A stretch of 64,000 bases of DNA. Source: the human T2T-CHM13v2.0 reference genome, Homo sapiens. Shown here piece after piece: positions 1-10,717 of this stretch. The stretch lies in assembly GCF_009914755.1 (NCBI RefSeq), contig NC_060939.1; one strand, written 5' to 3'. Within the stretch, counting starts at the first letter, position 1. Every line of letters begins with the position of its first letter. The notes below the pieces were generated by a model that had not been told where the DNA came from, made no database searches, and worked only from the letters and a program-made list of their open reading frames with translations. A program made the position numbers and the translations under genes.

Positions 1-798
1 TGTTGATGATGGATGTGAGAGTGGTGAAGCCCTGCGGGATGATGTAGAGGACTTCCACATCCCTGGTGAGGAGCTGCCCCTTGGGTCTGAGTTTCTGGGA
101 GGGGAGAGGGAGAAGCTGGGTGAGGCAGGCATGAATCTTGAGGAGTCAGGGCTGGGGGACCGCTCATATTCTCCCGAGACCTGTGAGTCTCTGGGGGACT
201 CCTGGGTGCATGGGGCTGACTCCCGCAGGAACCTGGGGATGGCTGGAGAGTAACTGGGAGCCACAGGAGGGTCCCTGAGGCCTGGGGGTGAAGAGATGCA
301 AGACACAGGGGTGGAGCAGCGTGAGGCTCGTGAGTTTGTAGGTGATTCCTGGGTGTGGGGGGCTGACTCCAGCTGAAATCTGGGGTTGTTTGGAGAGTAG
401 CTGGGAGACACAGGAGACCCCCCGAGAGCTGGGGGTGAGCTGCTGGGTGATGGCAGTAAGAACATGTGGTATATTATTGATGAACGTGGGGACTCTGAGG
501 AGTCCTCAGAGGAGGACACGGCAGAGCCCAATGGCTTCATTGATTGCCCATCACGGTGAGGACAGGGAAATGGGAGCTTGTGGGATTCTGGTGATGACAG
601 AGGTGAGTGTGGTGAAGCCCTAGGGGATGGTGAATGGTAGTTCCGGATCCCTGGTGAGGAGCTTCCCCTTAAGCCTGAGTTTCTGAGAGGGGAGAGGGAG
701 AAGCTGGGTGAGGCTCGCATGGACCTTGGGGTGTCCGTGATGGGGGACCGTTCATAAGAAGAGCCAGACAAGACCCTACTGTTCTTAGGTGCAGACAT
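1..798 (-). CDS. 5' part (about 266 codons) of the Ser/Pro-rich CTD-like repeat ORF, copy 1; truncated by window start
   Basis: Matches 6597-7394 of the next copy; ATG is + strand cat at 796-798. Confidence 0.55.
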   Translation of the reverse strand, partial: MSAPKNSRVLSGSSYERSPITDTPRSMRASPSFSLSPLRNSGLRGSSSPGIRNYHSPSPRASPHSPLSSPESHKLPFPCPHRDGQSMKPLGSAVSSSEDSSESPRSSIIYHMFLLPSPSSSPPALGGSPVSPSYSPNNPRFQLESAPHTQESPTNSRASRCSTPVSCISSPPGLRDPPVAPSYSPAIPRFLRESAPCTQESPRDSQVSGEYERSPSPDSSRFMPASPSFSLSPPRNSDPRGSSSPGMWKSSTSSRRASPLSHPSST

Positions 799-859
799 GA
801 TTAGGAAACCTGCAGCTCCCAGGGGCCCCCACTAATGTTCTAACTCGCAGAAGGAAGGA

Positions 860-912
860 GTGTGTGTGCGTGTGTGCGTGTGCGTGTGCGTGTGTGTGTT
901 TGTGTGTGTGCG
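860..912. repeat. (TG)/(CG) alternating purine-pyrimidine microsatellite, in every unit
   Basis: gtgtgtgtgcgtgtgtgcgtgtgcg... read directly; length varies between unit types. Confidence 0.9.
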
Positions 913-960
913 GTGTGAGGTATGGGCCCCTTAAAGAAATGGAAATCAACCAACCAATGG

Positions 961-985
961 GACAGACAGACAGACAGACAGACAG
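961..985. repeat. (GACA)n microsatellite, in every unit
   Basis: About six gaca units read directly. Confidence 0.9.
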
Positions 986-1107
986 AGATTCACTTGCCCA
1001 AGTGTTCTGTCCTGTCCTCTGAATCCGCTTTCAAGTCGCAAGACGCTGTGAGCTCCAAGTCCACGCAGAGTCCGCCAAACGCTCCGGCCGCTGATCCGCT
1101 CCGCGAA

Positions 1108-1178
1108 GATCTGAGTACAGGCCAGCCAGGGTGGGTTTAAATAGCCTCGGGCGCAGCCTAGCAGCGGAAAGGGCGGAG
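1108..1178 (-). promoter_or_regulatory. Pol II core promoter: GC box (1171-1176), TATTTAAA (1143-1136), Inr TCAGATC (A+1 at 1112)
   Basis: The first T of the TATA box is 31 nt upstream of a perfect YYANWYY Inr, with GGGCGG at about -60 in a locally CpG-rich patch. TATA is retained at 7732, 14328, 20628, 26931, 33230, 39542, 45845, 52148 and 58743. Confidence 0.65.
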
Positions 1179-1719
1179 CCTCACTCCTCCTTTCCATCAG
1201 TCACCCCCAACTTTCCCAGGCTACACCTCGTAGGAAACTGTTCTCCTGCTTTGATTTCATGCGCCACCTTTGGGACAATCTAAGAACTTACAGGTTTTCT
1301 TGGCCAGATTTATTAGGAATTGTATGCACTGAAACACTGAAAACCAACTAGTGGTTCTGTGCTTCCCACGTTGTGGTTTTGACACCAGCAGCATCCTTGC
1401 CACAATCAAACCCCGGAGATCCGCAGATCTGTGTTGTAACAAGACCTCCCCCTGACCCTGAAGCATGGCAGTTGAAGAAGTCTTTCCGTGTAAGCGAAAA
1501 GACTTTGAAGAAAAGGTGGAGATATGCGTTGTATAAACATTCTTTTGCTCTGGAACCACGTAGAGACTTGGGAGCCAGTTGGGTGGAGCATTCGTTGGAT
1601 GAGGGTGCTCGGGTTAGGAATATCAAGGTGTTTCTCCAGATAATCCAATCATCTAATTAAGATTCCAGTTATGCTCATCTGTTTTAAAATTCCGTTTGGG
1701 TAAATTCTTTTAGTCAGAC

Positions 1720-2190
1720 TGAGAATGGCAAAGCCTCAACCCCAATTTCCAGGGAGGGTGGAGAGCCTCAGGTGGAGTTGATCACCAATAGCCTATGGTT
1801 TAACCCATCATGCCTATAGAATGAGGTCTCCATCAAAACCCAAAAGGACTGGGTTCAGAGAGCTTCTGGATAACACTTCCTGGAAGGTAGTGCACCCCTC
1901 CCCGCATGCCGGGCCCCACATTTATTTCTGAACTTTGTGCAATGTCCGCTAAAATACAACGGCAAATGTAAGTGTTTCCCTGCGTGCTGTGAGCTCTTCC
2001 AGCAAATGAATGCAACTAAATCTGGGAGTGGTGGCAACCTGATTTATAGCCAGTTGCTGAGAAGCACAGGTAAAACAACGTAGGGCTTCCCATTGTTGTT
2101 GGTGTGGGAGGCCTGTCTGGCGGGACTCGGCCCTTTGGAATCTAATGCTATGTCCCGGTAGATAGCGTCACCATTGAATTAGAAGACACA
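1720..2190 (+). mobile_element. MER21-like ERV LTR fragment, one per unit
   Basis: ttgatcaccaatagcc...catcatgcctatagaatgaggtctccatcaaaacccaaaaggactgggttcagagagcttc and gatagcgtcaccattgaattagaagacac resemble the MER21 consensus as recalled. Boundaries are approximate. Confidence 0.65.
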
Positions 2191-2364
2191 CATATGTGGA
2201 GAATAATCTTTCTGGTCATTTACTGCATGTCATATTTACAACATGTAATCAAATTCTTTATCCTGACCTTATGGCACCTGGGTTTAGGACCATGATTTGA
2301 ACCAAACGTTGGTCTGTCACTTTCTGAGTTTGAAACTTTATTTTGCCTTTAGCGTTTTGCTATT

Positions 2365-2665
2365 GCTTTTTCGTTTTCTTTTGTTTCGTTTCGTTTCTAA
2401 GTTCTGGGGTATATGTGCAGGATGTGCAGATTTGTTACTAAGGTAAACGTGTGCCATGGTGGTTTGCTGCACCTGTCAACCCGTCACCTAGGTATTAAGC
2501 CCAGCATGCAGTAGCTGTTTTTCTTAACGCTCTGCCTCCCGAAAGGCCCCAGTGTGTGTTGTTCCCCTTCCTGTGTCCATGGGATCTCACTTTTCAGCTC
2601 CCATTATAAGTGAGAAGGTGGCGTTTGGTTTTCTTTCCCTGGATTAGTTTGCTGACGATAATGAC
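2365..2665 (-). mobile_element. L1PA-family LINE-1 3' end with degenerate poly(A), antisense, one per unit
   Basis: A T-rich tail is followed by taagttctggggtatatgtgcaggatgtgcagatttgttac...gtgccatggtggtttgctgcacc...taggtattaagcccagcatgca, the characteristic primate L1 3' terminus in reverse. Confidence 0.85.
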
Positions 2666-2680
2666 CACACATCACCACTG

Positions 2681-3020
2681 TTTTTGTTTTTTAGTATAAA
2701 GAGTAGTATTTTATTGAATAAGATTTGCTCACAGAAAAATAAGCTTAAATCTACAATGAATGCCAGACCCTACAGCAGAAAGCAATTTTCTCACTTTTCC
2801 ACACACAATGGTTCCTACTAAGTGAAAAAAAAGCCATAAAATTTCATTCACAAATGTACTACTCTGTCTCAAAACATCTCACGTAATCATGCACTGTACT
2901 AAAGCCAACAGATCAGTTCTTCAGTCAGGTTAAAGAAGTATCCCTCTAATAACTGACTTTTATAATGCTATCAATATCCACTCCCAATCAGTCTGCCATT
3001 GTTAGTGGTGTACAGCATTA
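2681..3020 (-). other. Polyadenylated retrocopy-like fragment (3'UTR-like), one per unit
   Basis: Minus-strand AATAAA (+ tttatt 2710-2715) lies 17 nt before an A tract (+ T tract 2681-2692), with AT-rich UTR-like sequence. The parent is unknown and the 5' boundary is a guess. Confidence 0.45.
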
Positions 3021-3054
3021 CTGAATACAACGGAATTGATGACGCCCATATCCA

Positions 3055-3125
3055 CAGACAAACCGTGACTTATGATGGTTTGATTTATGATTTTTCAACG
3101 TTATGATGGGTTTATTGGAATATTA
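3055..3125. mobile_element. Short Tigger/MER47-like DNA transposon fragment
   Basis: gacttatgatggtttgatttatgatttttcaacgttatgatgggtttattgg resembles a CpG-decayed subterminal motif (gacttacgat...ttttcaacttacgatgggtttatcgg) as recalled. Confidence 0.4.
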
Positions 3126-3407
3126 GATTTGTTTCTGAGTTACACTGGGTTTATGAGTATGCGACCCTACACTCCAGAAACAGCTGTACAAGGAAAAACA
3201 GGTGTACCTAATAAAAATATGCTTAGTGACTTGGGATAAACCAATAGAAGTTCACAAGTGATGGAGAGCCGTGAAAGAGAGATAGCGGTAAATAGTTACA
3301 ATAACACAATTTTCCTGCACCTGTCGAGGATTTCCCCCAAAAAACGCAGAATGTGGGATGCACCTAAGGCATATGAAAGAGAGAGGGCAGAAGGAGTAAG
3401 AGAGAAA

Positions 3408-3525
3408 TAGGAGGAAGGAAGGAAGGAAGCAAGGAAGAAAGGAAGGTAGGAAAGAAGGAAGGTAGGACGGAAGGAAGGAAGGAAGGAAGGAAGGAAGGAA
3501 GGAAAGAAGGATGAAAGGAAGGAGA
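3408..3525 (+). repeat. (GGAA)n polypurine microsatellite, one per unit, variable in 4-bp steps
   Basis: Read directly; also at about 10005, 16600, 22890, 29190, 35500, 41800, 48105, 54410 and 61015. Confidence 0.95.
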
Positions 3526-3579
3526 AAACACCGGTGTTACTAAAACCCCCCAAAAAAATGGTTTCCCCCTGTGGGTAAG

Positions 3580-3910
3580 CCTACAATGTGGATGAATCTT
3601 GAAAATATTGTGCTACGTGTTATGTCAGTCATAGCAGCTCACCTATTGTGCAATTCCGTTTATAGGAAATGTCCACAATATGGAAATCTATGCATATGGG
3701 ATTGATCGCACTAGGTAGTTGCTACCTAGGGCTGAGGGTCAGGGAGAGGGTTTGAGACAGAATGAGGAGTGACTAATGTCTACAGGGTCTTTCTCTGGTC
3801 GGGGGTGATAAGACGTTTTACAATGGATTGCGAATTAAAATTGAATGTGCACAACCACAGGTATACTAAAAGCCACTCAATTCATGACCTTTAATGGGGG
3901 AATCTTACGT
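3580..3910 (+). mobile_element. Old L1M (L1MB/L1MD-like) 3'-region fragment, one per unit
   Basis: tggatgaatcttgaaaatattgtgcta...tattgtgcaattccgtttataggaaatgtcca...ggtagttgctacctagggctg...atactaaaagccactcaatt are typical mammalian L1M 3'UTR motifs. Confidence 0.65.
3890..3895 (-). terminator. Candidate poly(A) signal ATTAAA about 230 nt after the ORF stop
   Basis: + strand tttaat, followed on the minus strand by GT-rich sequence (gagtggcttttagtatacctgtggttgtg). Confidence 0.35.
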
Positions 3911-4121
3911 GGCGTAGTCTCATGGAGACCACGGCAGACATAGTGAGAGAGAAAAAGGTGAGTAAATATCTGAAACGGAGGCAGAAACAGAGAGAATGTA
4001 AAGCCCTGTGAATGGAAGGGAGAGCGAAAAGGGAAAATGGTCCTATTTACAAATGACAGATGTGAAACTGGGGTTCACATCAACAGTGTCACTGCCAGGA
4101 AGGAGGGTCATGCTAGCCATG

Positions 4122-7100
4122 TCACCGGTAGTGTGGCCCGCAGGGAGGCCGACCTGCTGGAGCGTCGTGCCAGCATGGGCTGTGGCAACCACGTGGGCCA
4201 GCAGGAGGTTCCCGCTGCACAGCTGTGGGGTGAGGATAGACTGGGTGGTGATATCGGCCATTACAGGGGCCTCTTCTGCTGGCAAGAGTGTGACAGTAGC
4301 AAGTAGATGGACAGGCCTGCGTGTGAGGACGGAATGCAGGAGGGGTTCTTGTGCGCCTGGGTGTGGGGCCCTCACGGGAACCGTGGAGAAATGGCCAGGT
4401 AACTGCGTCATGTGGGCTAGTAGATTGGCCAGGGCTTCGAACTGAAGGACGATAACGGGGAGTAGCTGTCAGGCCCTGGGAGTGCCTGAGTGTAAGTGGA
4501 GATGGGTTTGGGGTCACTGAGGGATGCGTGGGAGCCATCCCTGTATAGGTACAGGTCATAGGGAGATAGTCTCGTGAGGCCTGTGAGTGTCTAGGGTTGT
4601 CCTGGGTGCCTGGGGCTGACTGTGGCAGAAATCTGGGGAAGGCTGGAGAGAAGCTGGGAGACCCAGGAGAGTCCCTGAAGGCAGGGGGTGAAGAGGTGAA
4701 AGAAATGGGGGAGGGTTGCAGTAAGGTCCGTGAGTTTGTAGGTGATTCCTGGGTGCGGGAAGCTGACTCCAGATGAAATCTGGAGATGGTTGGAGAGTAG
4801 CTGAGAGAGACAGAAGAGTCCCTGAGGGCTGGGGGTGAGAACATGAGGGAGACGGGGGAGTAAGTCAGTGAAATTCGTGAGTTCGGTGGTGTATCGTGGG
4901 TGCCTGGAACTGACTCCAGCTGGAATCTAGAGAAGTTTTGAGAGTAGCTGAAGGAGACACAAGAGTCCCTGTGGGCTGAGGGCAAAGACCTGAGACAGAC
5001 CAGGGAGGACCTCAGTGAAGTCTGTGAGTCTGTAGGTGATTCCGGAGTGTGGGAGGCTGACTCCCGCTGAAATCTGGGCGTGGTGGGAGAGTAGCTGGGA
5101 CAGACAGGAGAGTCCCAGGGGGCTGGGGGTGAAGACGTGAGAGAGACTGGGGAGTAACTCAGTGAAATTGCTGAGTTGGTTGGTGATACCTGGGTGCCTG
5201 GAACTGACCCCCGCTGAAATCTGGGCATGGTTGGAGAGTAGCTGGGACACACAGGAGAGTCCCTGAGGGCTGGGGGTGAAGACATGAGCGAGACCGGGGA
5301 GTAACTGAGTGAAACTGGTGAGTTTGGTGGTGACTCCGGGGTGCCTGGAACTGACTCCAGCTGAAATGTGGGCGTGGTTGGAGAGTAGCTGGGACAGACA
5401 GGAGAGTCCCTGAGGACTGGTGAAGACATGAGAGAGACTGGAGAGTAATTGAGTGAAATTGGTGAGTTTGGTGGTGATTCCTGGGTGCCTGGAACTGACT
5501 CCCGCTGAAGTGTGGGCGTGGTTGGAGAGTAGCTGGGACACACAGGAGAGTCCCTGAGGGTTGGAGATAAAGACGTGCTAGAGACTGAGGAGTAACTGAG
5601 TGAAATTGGTGAGTTTGGTGGTGATTCCGGGGTGCCTGGAACGGACTCCAGCTGAAATGTGGGCGTGGTTGGAGAGTAGCTGGGACAGACGGGAGAGTCC
5701 CTGAGGGATGGTGAAGACATGAGAGAGACTGGGGAGTAACGCAGTGAAATTGGTGAGTTTGGTGGTGATTTCTGGGTGCCTGCAACGGACTCCCGCTGAA
5801 GTGTGGGCGTGCTTGGAGAGTAGCTGGGACAGACAGGCGAGTCCCTGAGGGTTGGAGATAAAGACGTGCTAGAGACTGAGGAGTAACTGAGTGAAATTGG
5901 TGAGTTTGGTGGTGATTCCGGGGTGCCTGGAACGGACTCCAGCTGAAATGTGGGCGTGGTTGGAGAGTAGCTGGGACAGACGGGAGAGTCCCTGAGGGAT
6001 GGTGAAGACATGAGAGAGACTGGGGAGTAACGCAGTGAAATTGGTGAGTTTGGTGGTGATTTCTGGGTGCCTGCAACGGACTCCCGCTGAAGTGTGGGCG
6101 TGCTTGGAGAGTAGCTGGGACAGACAGGCGAGTCCCTGAGGGTTGGAGATAAAGACGTGCTGGAGACTGGGGAGTAACTCAGTGAAAGTGGGGGGCTTGG
6201 TGGTGATCCCAGGGTTCCTGGAACTGACCCGCGCTGAAATGTGGGCGTGGTTGGAGAGTAGCTGGGACAGACTGGAGGGTCCGTAAGGGCTGGGGGTGAA
6301 GACGTGAGAGAGACTGGCGAGGATCTCACTGAGGTCTGTGAGTTTGTAGGTGTTTCTGGGGTGTGGGGTACAGACTCCCGCTGAAATCTGGGCGTAGTTG
6401 GAGAGTAGCTGGGACAGACAGGAGAGTCATGGGTGGCTGGGGGTGAGCTGCTGGATGATGGCAGTAAGAACATATGGTACATTATTGATGAATGAGGTGA
6501 CTGTGAAGAATCTCCAGAGGAGGACACGGGAGAACACAATGACATGAGTGACTGTCCTGCTTGGTTAGGAAAGGGAAACGTAAAGTTGTGGAATTCTGTT
6601 GATGATGGATGTGAGAGTGGTGAAGCCCTGCGGGATGATGTAGAGGACTTCCACATCCCTGGTGAGGAGCTGCCCCTTGGGTCTGAGTTTCTGGGAGGGG
6701 AGAGGGAGAAGCTGGGTGAGGCAGGCATGAATCTTGAGGAGTCAGGGCTGGGGGACCGCTCATATTCTCCCGAGACCTGTGAGTCTCTGGGGGACTCCTG
6801 GGTGCATGGGGCTGACTCCCGCAGGAACCTGGGGATGGCTGGAGAGTAACTGGGAGCCACAGGAGGGTCCCTGAGGCCTGGGGGTGAAGAGATGCAAGAC
6901 ACAGGGGTGGAGCAGCGTGAGGCTCGTGAGTTTGTAGGTGATTCCTGGGTGTGGGGGGCTGACTCCAGCTGAAATCTGGGGTTGTTTGGAGAGTAGCTGG
7001 GAGACACAGGAGACCCCCCGAGAGCTGGGGGTGAGCTGCTGGGTGATGGCAGTAAGAACATGTGGTATATTATTGATGAACGTGGGGACTCTGAGGAGTC

Positions 7101-7394
7101 CTCAGAGGAGGACACGGCAGAGCCCAATGGCTTCATTGATTGCCCATCACGGTGAGGACAGGGAAATGGGAGCTTGTGGGATTCTGGTGATGACAGAGGT
7201 GAGTGTGGTGAAGCCCTAGGGGATGGTGAATGGTAGTTCCGGATCCCTGGTGAGGAGCTTCCCCTTAAGCCTGAGTTTCTGAGAGGGGAGAGGGAGAAGC
7301 TGGGTGAGGCTCGCATGGACCTTGGGGTGTCCGTGATGGGGGACCGTTCATAAGAAGAGCCAGACAAGACCCTACTGTTCTTAGGTGCAGACAT
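4122..7394 (-). CDS. Putative Ser/Pro/Thr-rich disordered protein with Pol II CTD-like YSPTTP repeats, long form (1090 aa), copy 2
   Basis: Uninterrupted ATG-TGA ORF, A at Kozak -3, upstream TATA/Inr/GC box, 48/49-aa repeats. Translation is unproven. Confidence 0.65.
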   Translation of the reverse strand: MSAPKNSRVLSGSSYERSPITDTPRSMRASPSFSLSPLRNSGLRGSSSPGIRNYHSPSPRASPHSPLSSPESHKLPFPCPHRDGQSMKPLGSAVSSSEDSSESPRSSIIYHMFLLPSPSSSPPALGGSPVSPSYSPNNPRFQLESAPHTQESPTNSRASRCSTPVSCISSPPGLRDPPVAPSYSPAIPRFLRESAPCTQESPRDSQVSGEYERSPSPDSSRFMPASPSFSLSPPRNSDPRGSSSPGMWKSSTSSRRASPLSHPSSTEFHNFTFPFPNQAGQSLMSLCSPVSSSGDSSQSPHSSIMYHMFLLPSSSSSPPATHDSPVCPSYSPTTPRFQRESVPHTPETPTNSQTSVRSSPVSLTSSPPALTDPPVCPSYSPTTPTFQRGSVPGTLGSPPSPPLSLSYSPVSSTSLSPTLRDSPVCPSYSPSTPTLQRESVAGTQKSPPNSPISLRYSPVSLMSSPSLRDSPVCPSYSPTTPTFQLESVPGTPESPPNSPISLSYSSVSSTSLSPTLRDSPVCPSYSPSTPTLQRESVAGTQKSPPNSPISLRYSPVSLMSSPSLRDSPVCPSYSPTTPTFQLESVPGTPESPPNSPISLSYSSVSSTSLSPTLRDSPVCPSYSPTTPTLQRESVPGTQESPPNSPISLNYSPVSLMSSPVLRDSPVCPSYSPTTPTFQLESVPGTPESPPNSPVSLSYSPVSLMSSPPALRDSPVCPSYSPTMPRFQRGSVPGTQVSPTNSAISLSYSPVSLTSSPPAPWDSPVCPSYSPTTPRFQRESASHTPESPTDSQTSLRSSLVCLRSLPSAHRDSCVSFSYSQNFSRFQLESVPGTHDTPPNSRISLTYSPVSLMFSPPALRDSSVSLSYSPTISRFHLESASRTQESPTNSRTLLQPSPISFTSSPPAFRDSPGSPSFSPAFPRFLPQSAPGTQDNPRHSQASRDYLPMTCTYTGMAPTHPSVTPNPSPLTLRHSQGLTATPRYRPSVRSPGQSTSPHDAVTWPFLHGSREGPTPRRTRTPPAFRPHTQACPSTCYCHTLASRRGPCNGRYHHPVYPHPTAVQREPPAGPRGCHSPCWHDAPAGRPPCGPHYR
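4590..6450. repeat. 147/144-bp satellite block (ACRO1-like), present in every unit and extending in diverged form to about 7350
   Basis: The motif ggagagtagctgggacaga...gagtccctgaggg recurs every 144-147 bp. A 147-bp monomer is the known ACRO1 unit size. Confidence 0.85.
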
Positions 7395-7703
7395 GATTAG
7401 GAAACCTGCAGCTCCCAGGGGCCCCCACTAATGTTCTAACTCGCAGAAGGAAGGAGTGTGTGTGCGTGTGTGCGTGTGCGTGTGCGTGTGTGTGTTTGTG
7501 TGTGTGCGGTGTGAGGTATGGGCCCCTTAAAGAAATGGAAATCAACCAACCAATGGGACAGACAGACAGACAGACAGACAGAGATTCACTTGCCCAAGTG
7601 TTCTGTCCTGTCCTCTGAATCCGCTTTCAAGTCGCAAGACGCTGTGAGCTCCAAGTCCACGCAGAGTCCGCCAAACGCTCCGGCCGCTGATCCGCTCCGC
7701 GAA

Positions 7704-7774: not shown

Positions 7775-10717
7775 CCTCACTCCTCCTTTCCATCAGTCAC
7801 CCCCAACTTTCCCAGGCTACACCTCGTAGGAAACTGTTCTCCTGCTTTGATTTCATGCGCCACCTTTGGGACAATCTAAGAACTTACAGGTTTTCTTGGC
7901 CAGATTTATTAGGAATTGTATGCACTGAAACACTGAAAACCAACTAGTGGTTCTGTGCTTCCCACGTTGTGGTTTTGACACCAGCAGCATCCTTGCCACA
8001 ATCAAACCCCGGAGATCCGCAGATCTGTGTTGTAACAAGACCTCCCCCTGACCCTGAAGCATGGCAGTTGAAGAAGTCTTTCCGTGTAAGCGAAAAGACT
8101 TTGAAGAAAAGGTGGAGATATGCGTTGTATAAACATTCTTTTGCTCTGGAACCACGTAGAGACTTGGGAGCCAGTTGGGTGGAGCATTCGTTGGATGAGG
8201 GTGCTCGGGTTAGGAATATCAAGGTGTTTCTCCAGATAATCCAATCATCTAATTAAGATTCCAGTTATGCTCATCTGTTTTAAAATTCCGTTTGGGTAAA
8301 TTCTTTTAGTCAGACTGAGAATGGCAAAGCCTCAACCCCAATTTCCAGGGAGGGTGGAGAGCCTCAGGTGGAGTTGATCACCAATAGCCTATGGTTTAAC
8401 CCATCATGCCTATAGAATGAGGTCTCCATCAAAACCCAAAAGGACTGGGTTCAGAGAGCTTCTGGATAACACTTCCTGGAAGGTAGTGCACCCCTCCCCG
8501 CATGCCGGGCCCCACATTTATTTCTGAACTTTGTGCAATGTCCGCTAAAATACAACGGCAAATGTAAGTGTTTCCCTGCGTGCTGTGAGCTCTTCCAGCA
8601 AATGAATGCAACTAAATCTGGGAGTGGTGGCAACCTGATTTATAGCCAGTTGCTGAGAAGCACAGGTAAAACAACGTAGGGCTTCCCATTGTTGTTGGTG
8701 TGGGAGGCCTGTCTGGCGGGACTCGGCCCTTTGGAATCTAATGCTATGTCCCGGTAGATAGCGTCACCATTGAATTAGAAGACACACATATGTGGAGAAT
8801 AATCTTTCTGGTCATTTACTGCATGTCATATTTACAATATGTAATCAAATTCTTTATCCTGACCTTATGGCACCTGGGTTTAGGACCATGATTTGAACCA
8901 AACGTTGGTCTGTCACTTTCTGAGTTTGAAACTTTATTTTGCCTTTAGCGTTTTGCTATTGCTTTTTCGTTTTCTTTTGTTTCGTTTCGTTTCTAAGTTC
9001 TGGGGTATATGTGCAGGATGTGCAGATTTGTTACTAAGGTAAACGTGTGCCATGGTGGTTTGCTGCACCTGTCAACCCGTCACCTAGGTATTAAGCCCAG
9101 CATGCAGTAGCTGTTTTTCTTAACGCTCTGCCTCCCGAAAGGCCCCAGTGTGTGTTGTTCCCCTTCCTGTGTCCATGGGATCTCACTTTTCAGCTCCCAT
9201 TATAAGTGAGAAGGTGGCGTTTGGTTTTCTTTCCCTGGATTAGTTTGCTGACGATAATGACCACACATCACCACTGTTTTTGTTTTTTAGTATAAAGAGT
9301 AGTATTTTATTGAATAAGATTTGCTCACAGAAAAATAAGCTTAAATCTACAATGAATGCCAGACCCTACAGCAGAAAGCAATTTTCTCACTTTTCCACAC
9401 ACAATGGTTCCTACTAAGTGAAAAAAAAGCCATAAAATTTCATTCACAAATGTACTACTCTGTCTCAAAACATCTCACGTAATCATGCACTGTACTAAAG
9501 CCAACAGATCAGTTCTTCAGTCAGGTTAAAGAAGTATCCCTCTAATAACTGACTTTTATAATGCTATCAATATCCACTCCCAATCAGTCTGCCATTGTTA
9601 GTGGTGTACAGCATTACTGAATACAACGGAATTGATGACGCCCATATCCACAGACAAACCGTGACTTATGATGGTTTGATTTATGATTTTTCAACGTTAT
9701 GATGGGTTTATTGGAATATTAGATTCGTTTCTGAGTTACACTGGGTTTATGAGTATGCGACCCTACACTCCAGAAACAGCTGTACAAGGAAAAACAGGTG
9801 TACCTAATAAAAATATGCTTAGTGACTTGGGATAAACCAATAGAAGTTCACAAGTGATGGAGAGCCGTGAAAGAGAGATAGCGGTAAATAGTTACAATAA
9901 CACAATTTTCCTGCACCTGTCGAGGATTTCCCCCAAAAAACGCAGAATGTGGGATGCACCTAAGGCATATGAAAGAGAGAGGGCAGAAGGAGTAAGAGAG
10001 AAATAGGAGGAAGGAAGGAAGGAAGCAAGGAAGAAAGGAAGGTAGGAAAGAAGGAAGGTAGGACGGAAGGAAGGAAGGAAGGAAGGAAGGAAGGAAGGAA
10101 AGAAGGATGAAAGGAAGGAGAAAACACCGGTGTTACTAAAACCCCCCAAAAAAATGGTTTCCCCCTGTGGGTAAGCCTACAATGTGGATGAATCTTGAAA
10201 ATATTGTGCTACGTGTTATGTCAGTCATAGCAGCTCACCTATTGTGCAATTCCGTTTATAGGAAATGTCCACAATATGGAAATCTATGCATATGGGATTG
10301 ATCGCACTAGGTAGTTGCTACCTAGGGCTGAGGGTCAGGGAGAGGGTTTGAGACAGAATGAGGAGTGACTAATGTCTACAGGGTCTTTCTCTGGTCGGGG
10401 GTGATAAGACGTTTTACAATGGATTGCGAATTAAAATTGAATGTGCACAACCACAGGTATACTAAAAGCCACTCAATTCATGACCTTTAATGGGGGAATC
10501 TTACGTGGCGTAGTCTCATGGAGACCACGGCAGACATAGTGAGAGAGAAAAAGGTGAGTAAATATCTGAAACGGAGGCAGAAACAGAGAGAATGTAAAGC
10601 CCTGTGAATGGAAGGGAGAGCGAAAAGGGAAAATGGTCCTATTTACAAATGACAGATGTGAAACTGGGGTTCACATCAACAGTGTCACTGCCAGGAAGGA
10701 GGGTCATGCTAGCCATG

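What the first reader, a model, noticed from the sequence alone, without database searches (positions are those of the whole stretch)
4800..6420. The 147-bp monomer is 7 x 21 bp: seven degenerate CTD heptads in register
Seen: the 49-aa unit parses as YSPTTPT/FQLESVP/GTPESPP/NSPVSLS/YSPVSLM/SSPPALR/DSPVCPS. Six of seven heptads keep x-S/T-P at positions 1-3, and several keep S5, P6 or S7, matching the Y1S2P3T4S5P6S7 register. The 144-bp variant lacks exactly one codon. Inference: the satellite arose from a 21-bp heptad-coding array, either a captured POLR2A CTD exon/retrocopy or a convergent sequence, and was then amplified as a heptamer of heptads.
Basis: partly seen in the sequence, partly recalled or inferred. 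Interest (0 to 1): 0.8.

Follow-up and report, generated by a model that had tools for sequence, protein, structure and literature searches.

The report
ACRO1 satellite with CTD-like heptads
This is the known human ACRO1 satellite: its 147-base unit is made of seven worn 21-base sub-repeats that, when translated, resemble the tail of RNA polymerase II, a resemblance already published in 2020.

Summary
Window 4573-6447 is a 147-bp tandem array, and a shorter array lies at 6772-7035. Both sit inside a 6.3-6.6 kb unit that repeats ten times in the window. The consensus monomer matches itself at lag 21 in 66 of 147 positions, against 42±5 in shuffles (0 of 5000 reach it). On the minus strand it reads as seven heptads, 23 of 49 residues identical to YSPTSPS x7. 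The 144-bp variant lacks exactly codon 38.

This is not new. Boots et al. 2020 (PMC7714431) reported the ACRO1 translation, the 23/49 identity, the heptad periodicity and a possible origin from Pol II CTD mRNA.

New tests against the POLR2A last exon taken from the same genome give:
- nucleotide identity of 82/147 (5 of 5000 periodicity-preserving permutations reach it);
- matching serine codon families (305 of 20000);
- variation among the heptads concentrated at third codon positions (P=0.003).

Against capture: no POLR2A flank homology, no Pfam CTD-repeat match, older monomer layers are no more CTD-like, and an unrelated 21-bp array on chr7 matches the CTD protein as well.

The frame stays open for 1101 codons, beyond chance in the flanks (23 of 20000), yet pN/pS looks neutral. 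The origin from POLR2A remains unproven, at about 20%.

The parts
4573..6447 (-). Main ACRO1 array: twelve full 147/144-bp monomers plus partial copies at both ends. The central copies are the most alike.
   Evidence: TRF. nhmmer with a profile of the monomers: all copies in one codon phase. Identity gradient 68-100%.
5241..5387 (-).
   Evidence: residues 681-729 of the frame.
6772..7035 (-). Short ACRO1 array, about 1.8 degenerate monomers. It corresponds to the '256 bp' array of the published ACRE.
   Evidence: nhmmer hits with E 1.8e-33, 1.8e-12 and 8.9e-05. Boots et al. passage.
4122..7427 (-). Stop-to-stop open frame of 1101 codons, in phase with the heptad frame. Its first in-frame ATG is at 7394. 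It runs through both arrays, two paralogous 'head' pieces (7427-7036 and 6771-6448) and a non-periodic tail (4572-4125).
   Evidence: Zero stops in 387 non-array codons against 8 and 13 in the other two frames. Conservative test gives 23 of 20000.
1..6596 (.). One unit of the 6.3-6.6 kb macro-repeat (ACRE / ACRO composite). There are ten units in the window. The long (6596 bp) and short (about 6300 bp) forms differ by two monomers (291 bp).
   Evidence: Start-to-start spacings 6596, 6596, 6300, 6303, 6299, 6312, 6303, 6303, 6595. 12.6 against 10.6 monomer copies.
8237..8247 (+). One match per macro-unit to the DUX4 binding consensus (motif recalled from memory), 843 bp upstream of the frame's ATG on the minus strand. 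The other nine copies start at 1641, 14833, 21133, 27436, 33735, 40047, 46350, 52653 and 59248.
   Evidence: 10 matches against 0.39 expected in 64 kb. Distance to the ATG.

Best explanation
This is the ACRO1 satellite inside the roughly 6-kb ACRO composite ('ACRE') macrosatellite of the acrocentric short arms. I put that identity at about 0.95.

Structure. The locus is a three-tier repeat. A 21-bp sub-repeat was multiplied and diverged. A block of seven sub-repeats (147 bp) was then amplified as the monomer. An array of those monomers, together with its older worn copies and flanking transposon pieces, was amplified again as a 6.3-6.6 kb unit.

The CTD-like reading. On the minus strand, in one frame, each 21-mer is a degenerate Y-S-P-x-S-P/L-S heptad. 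The resemblance to the Pol II CTD is therefore real. It also extends to the nucleotides.

Coding imprint. The older layer of divergence, between the seven heptads, carries a coding-type imprint. Third codon positions vary most, and the frame stays open far into non-repeat flanks. The younger layer, between monomers and between families, looks neutral. My reading, at about 0.55, is that the sub-repeat array was once read in this frame and is now free of selection on its amino-acid sequence. The source gene is not identified. POLR2A's last exon is the only candidate found, and I give it about 0.2.

How it works (taken from papers, not tested here). RNA from the C-rich strand binds Pol II and aborts elongation in cis (Boots et al. 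2020). DUX4 switches ACRO1 transcription on in cleavage-stage embryos.
For: Identity:
- 147-bp monomer.
- Arrays of 1.5-1.8 kb in the window and about 260 bp (6772-7035), inside a unit repeating every 6.3-6.6 kb, as described for ACRO1/ACRE (passages of PMC7714431).
- Copies on contigs 13, 15, 21, 22, 3 and 4 of this genome.
- A 6-kb composite of ACRO1, L1PA10, MER21B and L1MB8 is described in a preprint (passages of bioRxiv 10.64898/2025.12.22.696095).

Seven times 21:
- Lag 21 gives 66/147 against 42 (sd 5), 0 of 5000.
- Residue lag 7 gives 17/49 against 6.2 (sd 2.1), 0 of 20000.
- Lag 21 is also the top lag in the two head pieces outside the recognised arrays: 0.341 and 0.363, reached by 5 and 4 of 3000 codon shuffles.

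CTD likeness:
- 23/49 identities against 13.0 (sd 1.4) in residue shuffles.
- 13 of 14 PDB matches are RPB1, best E 1.1e-6, but with a bias term of 224 bits.
- Nucleotide tests as given.

Coding-type imprint:
- Pair identity among the seven 21-mers is 0.517 at codon positions 1+2 and 0.245 at position 3 (P=0.0026; the other two frames give P=0.95 and 0.78).
- That conservation profile correlates with the profile of the 47 real CTD heptads (r=0.58, P=0.002, rank 1 of 21 cyclic shifts).
- Head A plus tail (279 codons) have 0 stops in this frame, against 7 and 10 in the other frames. The dinucleotide-shuffle mean is 6.4, and 23 of 20000 shuffles have none.

Neutral now:
- pN/pS among 11 unique monomers is 0.74, against 1.16 and 0.79 in the control frames.
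- Between families, the head gives 0.72 (controls 0.87, 1.00) and the tail 0.90 (controls 1.20, 0.73).

Mechanism: passages read.
Against: - I could not compare with the Dfam/Repbase ACRO1 consensus. The name rests on published descriptions, not on a sequence match.
- The coding-imprint tests were devised after seeing the frame, and they are few (P=0.003 and P=0.001).
- Head A and head B are paralogues. For that reason only one of them was counted in the conservative test.
- Among monomer variants, stop-creating changes are depleted as much in frame 1 (4 observed, 9.1 expected) as in the heptad frame (4 observed, 9.9 expected). That test therefore shows no frame-specific selection.
- A second frame is open for 735-909 codons in the contig 21 and 15 distal families. 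This shows that long open frames arise easily on this C-rich strand.
- Predicted monkey proteins leave the frame part-way.
- The mechanism is taken from one laboratory's reporter assays and yeast Pol II SELEX. I tested none of it here.
Confidence: 0.7

Rival explanations
1. Capture from POLR2A. A DNA copy or retrocopy of the last POLR2A exon, which encodes the whole CTD as a 21-bp-periodic array, landed near a centromere in an early primate. It decayed, and a seven-heptad block was amplified as ACRO1. This is the proposal of the first reader and of Boots et al.
For: - In-register nucleotide match of 0.497, against at most 0.375 in the 41 other registers. None of 5000 mono-shuffles, codon-shuffles or column permutations reach it.
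- 82/147 identical, with 5 of 5000 permutations reaching that.
- Synonymous codon match, 305 of 20000. Serine is TCN at positions 2 and 5 and AGY at position 7 in both sequences.
- Five 21-mers score 13-15/21, inside the 12-21/21 range of real CTD heptads. This implies only 0.16 extra substitutions per site.
- The third-position pattern correlates with that of the CTD.
- PF05001 finds no other heptad-coding exon in this genome. All 5 matches are in POLR2A, although only 150 of 629 candidates were scored.
Against: - No flank homology. The 29 blastn matches outside the CTD exon all have E of 0.04 or more, and the 22 tblastx matches outside it are short (14-31 residues, at most 29.5 bits).
- The only other copy of the POLR2A 3'UTR (contig 1, 79% over 222 bases) has no ACRO1 next to it.
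- Heptads 2 and 3 are at chance. Taking all seven heptads, the distance is 0.38 substitutions per site. By my recalled estimate of primate neutral rates, that is more than a primate-only element should have accumulated.
- No source segment stands out within the CTD.
- Older layers are not more CTD-like: 20-21 of 49 against 21-23 of 49.
- The majority 21-mer alone is unremarkable, 641 of 5000.
- A 21-bp array on contig 7, with units reading ISPTSAS and IIPTSAS, matches the CTD protein better (E 1e-37, 52-57% identity) than ACRO1 does (E 7e-23, 42-47%).
- This scenario does not explain why the frame stays open in flanks unrelated to RPB1.
Confidence: 0.2
2. Chance. ACRO1 grew from an ordinary non-coding C/T-rich 21-bp minisatellite. 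One of its six frames happens to read S-P-rich heptads, and both the CTD likeness and the long open frame are by-products of composition and periodicity.
For: - Unrelated arrays of period 21 (contig 7) and 42 (contig 16) are the top non-self matches to the CTD protein in this genome, ahead of ACRO1.
- There is no Pfam CTD-repeat match.
- pN/pS is near the control frames.
- A second frame is open for 735-909 codons in some families.
- The resemblance was noticed after the fact.
- The majority 21-mer test gives only 641 of 5000.
Against: - Third-codon-position variability is specific to this frame (P=0.0026), and it is absent from the contig 7 array used as a control (P=0.66).
- Non-repeat flanks are open in phase with the array, 23 of 20000.
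- The 147-mer nucleotide test (5 of 5000) and the register test (0 of 5000) both keep composition and periodicity, and the observed match still exceeds them.
- With 3.3% of substitutions creating a stop in this frame, the chance of no new stop is 0.013 at 4% divergence per lineage and 0.00016 at 8%.
Confidence: 0.4
3. A living gene. Each ACRO unit is a DUX4-switched transcription unit whose roughly 1000-1500-codon frame is still translated into an S/P-rich, CTD-like disordered protein. Selection would then act on the frame staying open and on composition rather than on exact sequence.
For: - The frame is open for 1003-1291 codons, with the same start (…IMSAPKN…) and the same end in representatives of families on contigs 3, 13, 15, 21 and 22. 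It is also open for 1027 codons on contig 4, where it starts later, in the second head piece.
- The flanks are open beyond chance.
- Persistence of the open frame is unlikely under neutrality.
- There is one DUX4-consensus match per unit, 843 bp upstream of the ATG, and a polyadenylation hexamer 226 bases after the stop.
- ACRO1 RNA peaks at the 4-cell stage and is DUX4-induced (passages).
- A 2025 preprint calls it 'a putative protein coding gene' (passage of PMC12746033).
- Gene predictors model it in marmoset, baboon and colobus, where it is automatically named RPB1 or RPB1-like.
Against: - pN/pS is 0.72-0.90, close to the control frames.
- The human-marmoset identity of 70% is about what I would expect for unconstrained sequence. 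That expectation is my own estimate.
- The monkey models leave the frame.
- Some human families carry a frameshift or a stop: the 956-codon form, and the contig 4 copy with TGA.
- Six upstream ATGs lie between the DUX4 motif and the ATG.
- There is no Pfam domain.
- RefSeq annotates no coding gene here (hub table).
- Boots et al. found no stable transcripts in HeLa cells.
Confidence: 0.08

Closest known systems
ACRO1 satellite / ACRE (Boots et al. 2020, Transcription 11:217, PMC7714431); 'ACRO' composite of the T2T ape papers
   Same: - A 147-bp monomer.
- A long array and an array of about 256 bp inside a roughly 6-kb unit.
- Location on acrocentric short arms plus chromosomes 3 and 4.
- A translation 23/49 identical to the CTD, with heptad periodicity.
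- The same proposed origin from CTD mRNA.
   Different: Nothing differs in kind. This report adds the nucleotide-level, codon-position and open-frame tests. In the passages I read, that paper used only a global protein alignment.
RNA polymerase II CTD heptad repeats (POLR2A last exon; Pfam PF05001)
   Same: - A 21-bp / 7-residue period.
- S-P at positions 2-3, S at position 5, P at position 6 in some heptads, and S at position 7 with AGY codons.
- Third positions are the variable ones.
   Different: - Only 23/49 identities.
- Two of the seven heptads are unrelated to the CTD.
- No PF05001 match.
- No flank homology.
- No selection on the residues now.
- It is embedded in heterochromatic macrosatellite arrays.
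D4Z4 macrosatellite with the DUX4 open frame, and other macrosatellites carrying a frame in each unit
   Same: A kilobase-scale unit repeated in tandem, each copy holding one long open frame. It is primate-restricted and transcribed in cleavage-stage embryos.
   Different: The D4Z4 frame encodes a folded homeodomain protein with proven function. The frame here is low-complexity, has no domain, and shows no residue-level constraint.
Higher-order repeat satellites such as alpha satellite
   Same: Hierarchical amplification: a block of diverged sub-units becomes the new unit. The centre of the array is homogenised and the edges are old.
   Different: The sub-unit here is 21 bp and keeps a codon phase. 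The higher-order unit equals 147 bp.
21-bp tandem array at contig 7:107.946 Mb of this genome (locus L016)
   Same: Period 21. One frame reads ISPTSAS or IIPTSAS, and it gives a stronger CTD protein match than ACRO1 does.
   Different: It is about 120 near-identical copies with no higher-order 147-bp unit. It shows no codon-position pattern (P=0.66) and a lower nucleotide match to the CTD (11/21 against 13/21 for the ACRO1 majority 21-mer).

Membership tests
ACRO1 satellite / ACRE composite | Monomer of 147 bp in tandem arrays | tested here: met
   Period 147 with 10.6-12.6 copies in each of 10 arrays. 147-column alignment of 12 monomers.
ACRO1 satellite / ACRE composite | A long array (1.3-2.4 kb) and a short array (about 256 bp) inside a higher-order unit of about 6 kb | tested here: met
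   Arrays at 4573-6447 and 6772-7035. Unit spacing of 6299-6596 bp. The description comes from passages of PMC7714431.
ACRO1 satellite / ACRE composite | Copies on acrocentric short arms, plus chromosomes 3 and 4 | tested here: met
   The window is on the chr15 short arm (hub table). Near-identical copies lie on contigs 13, 15, 21, 22 and 3, and on contig 4.
ACRO1 satellite / ACRE composite | Sequence match to the curated Dfam/Repbase ACRO1 consensus | not testable with these tools
   No repeat library is on hand. The name rests on the published description.
Pol II CTD repeat (Pfam PF05001, RNA_pol_Rpb1_R) | Profile score over the curated cut-off | tested here: not met
   No PF05001 match for the 1101-residue translation at E up to 10. 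In the whole genome, the 5 matches all lie in POLR2A, with 150 of 629 candidates scored.
Pol II CTD repeat | Tandem heptads with consensus Y1S2P3T4S5P6S7 | tested here: inconclusive
   The heptad period is met. Identity is 23/49. Among 720 column orders that keep the period, 12 reach 23. Two heptads score 1/7 and 3/7 in the consensus of 172 monomers (from the heptads listed).
Copy of the POLR2A last exon (retrocopy or segmental copy) | Homology of flanks (intron, upstream exons, 3'UTR) | tested here: not met
   All 29 blastn matches outside the CTD exon have E of 0.04 or more. The only other 3'UTR copy is on contig 1, without ACRO1.
Copy of the POLR2A last exon | Nucleotide similarity beyond residue composition, including synonymous sites | tested here: met
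   0 of 5000, 5 of 5000 and 305 of 20000. The majority 21-mer alone gives 641 of 5000.
Protein-coding gene | Purifying selection on residues (pN/pS clearly below the control frames) | tested here: not met
   0.74 against 1.16 and 0.79. 0.72 against 0.87 and 1.00, and 0.90 against 1.20 and 0.73.
Protein-coding gene | Open frame longer than composition allows | tested here: met
   0 stops in 279 independent flank codons, with 23 of 20000 shuffles having none. In all 387 non-array codons, 0 of 3000 shuffles have none.

The most novel reading that the evidence does not exclude
Each ACRO unit is a DUX4-switched gene-like element. Its open frame would descend from a heptad-coding exon, possibly the POLR2A CTD exon, and would still be kept open by selection. 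Cleavage-stage embryos would then make, from hundreds of copies, an S/P-rich protein that mimics the Pol II tail. The same RNA would also bind Pol II.
Probability: 0.07. Interest if true: 0.8.

Novelty: already known. Interest (0 to 1): 0.3.

Why it matters
If ACRO1 really descends from the POLR2A tail exon, it would be a rare documented case of a satellite born from a coding exon of an essential gene. It would also give the reported Pol II binding by its RNA an evolutionary rationale.

As it stands, the resemblance, the heptad register and the origin idea have been in print since 2020, so the finding is a rediscovery.

It also shows that the heptad frame stays open beyond chance in non-repeat flanks. 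Together these make the 'once coding' question testable with the new primate T2T assemblies.

Tried and rejected
1. I tested whether the monomer corresponds to the first seven (irregular) CTD heptads. Gapped global alignment of all 7 rotations against every CTD window put the start of the CTD low (score 5, against a best of 28). No window stands out.

2. I looked for frame-specific avoidance of stop-creating variants among 172 unique monomers. The heptad frame is depleted (4 observed, 9.9 expected, P=0.004), but so is frame 1 (4 observed, 9.1 expected, P=0.005). I rejected this as evidence.

3. The raw stop counts in 32 arrays are 5, 166 and 96 for the three frames. They look striking, but they mostly reflect stops inherited from the ancestral monomer and many near-identical copies. 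I did not use them as evidence.

4. I first argued that the distance to the CTD was too large for a primate-only element, assuming 100% starting identity (Jukes-Cantor 0.44-0.67). I corrected this after seeing that real CTD heptads are only 16.0/21 identical to their own majority. The extra distance is 0.16 for five heptads and 0.38 for all seven.

5. Lower-identity proteins from the protein database (38-50%) turned out to be frame-hopping gene models of the same DNA, not older relatives.

6. Rfam gave no family in 1-7500. Pfam gave only a noise match, Adeno_shaft at E 5.7.

8. No non-primate eukaryote genomes are on hand, so I could not search for a single-copy ancestral locus.
Full report
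**What is there.** Tandem Repeats Finder reports a 147-bp array at 4600-6446, with 12.6 copies and 81% matches. It also fits periods of 291 and 438. Nine further arrays of 10.6-12.6 copies lie elsewhere in the window. These arrays sit in a larger unit that recurs ten times, with start-to-start spacings of 6596, 6596, 6300, 6303, 6299, 6312, 6303, 6303 and 6595 bp. The long and short forms differ by two monomers. A profile built from the twelve monomers places copies at 6447-4573 on the minus strand and about 1.8 degenerate copies at 7035-6772. All of them are in one codon phase. Identity to the central copies falls toward the array edges, from 100% to 68%. This is the usual sign of a homogenised centre and old periphery.

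**Checking the observation.**
- On the minus strand, one frame is open through the whole array.
- The consensus of the twelve window monomers matches itself at circular lag 21 in 66 of 147 positions. Mono-, dinucleotide- and codon-shuffles give 41.8-42.6 (sd 5.1-5.3), and 0 of 5000 reach 66 in each.
- Taking the best of all 73 lags, 1, 7 and 2 of 5000 shuffles reach 66.
- In the raw array, lag 21 (0.418) is the highest of lags 1-63.
- At residue level, using the consensus of 172 unique monomers, lag 7 gives 17/49 against 6.2 (sd 2.1), 0 of 20000. All 8 [ST]P dipeptides fall in two heptad phases, 6 in one and 2 in the other. Identities to YSPTSPS x7 number 23, against 13.0 (sd 1.4).
- 71 of 172 unique monomers lack exactly codon 38.

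**It is already known.** A full-text search for ACRO1, acrocentric and satellite returned 19 papers. In Boots et al. 2020 (PMC7714431) I read passages and one whole section. They state the following:
- ACRO1 is 147 bp and occurs as arrays of 1.3-2.4 kb and 256 bp within a 6-kb 'ACRE'.
[quoted passage not shown] - ACRO1 RNA was a top Pol II-binding aptamer and blocked elongation in cis in reporters.
- No non-primate homologue was found.

Their comparison was a global protein alignment. A search for ACRO1 with CTD found three papers, and only that one treats the topic.

Other passages add context:
- A preprint calls ACRO a 6-kb composite of ACRO1, L1PA10, MER21B and L1MB8, almost exclusive to acrocentrics.
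- ACRO1 RNA peaks at the 4-cell stage.
- DUX4 activates ACRO1 transcription.
- ACRO1 is among the G-quadruplex-enriched satellites.

**Testing the POLR2A idea at nucleotide level.** The window's own genome can be searched. Pfam PF05001 hits only contig 17:7417552-7418190, with 5 matches. I fetched that region as locus L014. The whole CTD lies in one open stretch, L014:3042-4241.

Results in favour:
- Against a position matrix of 47 regular CTD heptads, the ACRO1 consensus scores 0.497 in the heptad register. The other 41 registers and strands give 0.248 (sd 0.064, maximum 0.375).
- Mono-shuffles, codon-shuffles and permutations of the 21 columns, which keep the periodicity, never reach 0.497 (0 of 5000 each). 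Among the 720 cyclic orders of the seven codon columns, 5 reach it.
- 82 of 147 bases equal the CTD majority 21-mer repeated seven times. The null is 64.0 (sd 3.8), and 5 of 5000 reach 82.
- At the 23 sites where the residues agree, ACRO1's codons fit the CTD's position-specific usage better than when ACRO1's synonymous codons are permuted (0.349 against 0.290, sd 0.025; 305 of 20000). Serine is TCN at heptad positions 2 and 5 and AGY at position 7 in both.
- Five 21-mers are 13-15/21 identical to the CTD majority. Real CTD heptads are 12-21/21 identical, with a mean of 16.0.

Results against:
- The majority 21-mer alone matches at 13/21, and 641 of 5000 permutations do as well.
- Heptads 2 and 3 match at 4/21 and 7/21.
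- blastn and tblastx of one whole unit against 7 kb around the exon find nothing credible outside the CTD (29 and 22 weak matches).
- The only other copy of the 3'UTR, on contig 1, has no ACRO1.
- No CTD segment stands out as the source.
- The translation has no PF05001 match.
- The PDB search gives RPB1 in 13 of 14 matches, but at E 1.1e-6 with a bias term of 224 bits.
- When the CTD protein is searched against the genome, the best non-self matches are a 21-bp array on contig 7 (E 1e-37, 52-57% identity) and a 42-bp array on contig 16. ACRO1 comes only after them (E 7e-23, 42-47%).

Protein-level E-values for periodic S/P-rich sequence are therefore a poor guide.

**An older layer.** The protein database holds a marmoset protein, automatically named RPB1, that is 70% identical to residues 1-420 of the frame. 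It also holds RPB1-like models from baboon and red colobus. Marmoset monomers line up position by position with the human ones, at 30-34 of 49 identical, so the unit's layout predates that split. The consensus of marmoset plus peripheral human monomers has 20-21 identities to the CTD, against 21-23 for the modern human consensus. Similarity to the CTD therefore does not rise going back in time. This is mildly against capture.

**A coding-type imprint.**
- Among the seven 21-mers, pair identity is 0.517 at codon positions 1+2 of the heptad frame and 0.245 at position 3 (P=0.0026). The other frames give P=0.95 and 0.78.
- The conservation profile correlates with that of real CTD heptads (r=0.58, P=0.002).
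- The contig 7 array shows no such pattern (P=0.66).
- The frame is open from 7427 to 4122, which is 1101 codons.
- Outside the arrays (387 codons) it has 0 stops, against 8 and 13 in the other frames. Dinucleotide shuffles expect 8.8 (0 of 3000 have none).
- Counting only one of the two paralogous head pieces plus the tail (279 codons), 23 of 20000 shuffles have none.
- Using the substitution spectrum seen between families, 3.3% of changes would create a stop in this frame. The chance of gaining none is then 0.013 at 4% divergence and 0.00016 at 8%.

**The younger layers look neutral.**
- pN/pS among monomers is 0.74, against 1.16 and 0.79 in the control frames.
- Between families, the head gives 0.72 (controls 0.87, 1.00) and the tail 0.90 (controls 1.20, 0.73).
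- Stop-creating variants are no more depleted in this frame than in frame 1.
- A second frame is open for 735-909 codons in some families.
- The monkey models leave the frame part-way.
- Some human copies carry a stop or a frameshift.

**Reading.** The locus is ACRO1 within the ACRO composite, and its 147-bp unit is a heptamer of 21-bp sub-repeats. The CTD likeness reaches the nucleotide level, but it does not prove descent from POLR2A. I give the three origins these weights:
- Capture from POLR2A: about 0.2.
- A once-translated array of another or unknown source: about 0.35. This includes about 0.08 for a frame that is still translated.
- A plain non-coding minisatellite: about 0.4.

The mechanism of action is taken from the literature and was not tested here.

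**Anatomy relevant to the gene-like reading.** There is one match to the DUX4 consensus per unit (10 in the window, against 0.39 expected). It lies 843 bp upstream of the first in-frame ATG at 7394. Six other ATGs lie between them, and a polyadenylation hexamer follows the stop by 226 bases. A 2025 preprint already speaks of 'a putative protein coding gene' in the ACRO1 array (passage). A search for ACRO1 with 'open reading frame' found 10 papers (8 listed). Of these I read ACRO1 passages in three, and none of those passages analyses the frame.

**Verdict.** This is a correct rediscovery of a published observation and hypothesis. The new tests sharpen the origin question but do not settle it.

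Noticed in passing
window 4122-7427 (-), and the same frame in loci L027-L041: A 1101-codon open frame runs through both arrays and non-repeat flanks. In other families it is 1003-1291 codons with the same start and end. The flanks are open beyond chance (23 of 20000), yet pN/pS is near the control frames. A 2025 preprint mentions a 'putative protein coding gene' in ACRO1.
   Followed up: yes
window 1641-1651, 8237-8247 and eight more, one per macro-unit (+): Exactly one match to the DUX4 binding consensus (motif recalled from memory) per unit: 10 matches against 0.39 expected. It lies 843 bp upstream of the frame's ATG. This fits the published DUX4 induction of ACRO1 RNA.
   Followed up: partly
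L016:1175-3684 (contig 7:107.946 Mb): A 21-bp tandem array of about 120 copies whose units read ISPTSAS, IIPTSAS or LIPTSAS in one frame. It is the best non-self match to the CTD protein in this genome. I do not know whether any gene is annotated there.
   Followed up: partly
L017:522-2540 (contig 16:95.73 Mb): A 42-bp tandem array of 48 copies at 97% identity that also matches the CTD protein (E 6.5e-36, 38% identity).
   Followed up: no
L043:1501-1718 (contig 1:236979577-236979794): The only second copy of part of the POLR2A 3'UTR in the genome (79% identity over 222 bases). There is no CTD-like or ACRO1 sequence beside it.
   Followed up: partly
window units starting at 1, 6597, 13193, 57611 versus the six units that start from 19494 to 51009: Two length forms of the macro-unit, 6596 bp and about 6300 bp, differ by one 291-bp pair of monomers (147+144). 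The long forms sit at both ends of the window and the short forms in the middle.
   Followed up: partly
proteins P0005, P0013, P0015, P0019: Public protein records of this frame are automatically named RPB1 or RPB1-like in marmoset, colobus and baboon. One record, 94% identical to the human frame, is filed under a Plasmodium species. That looks like host DNA in the assembly.
   Followed up: no
window 3412-3523 and 860-910, recurring in each unit: An (AGGA)n run of 27-32 copies whose length varies between units, and a (GT)n run, both inside the macro-unit.
   Followed up: no
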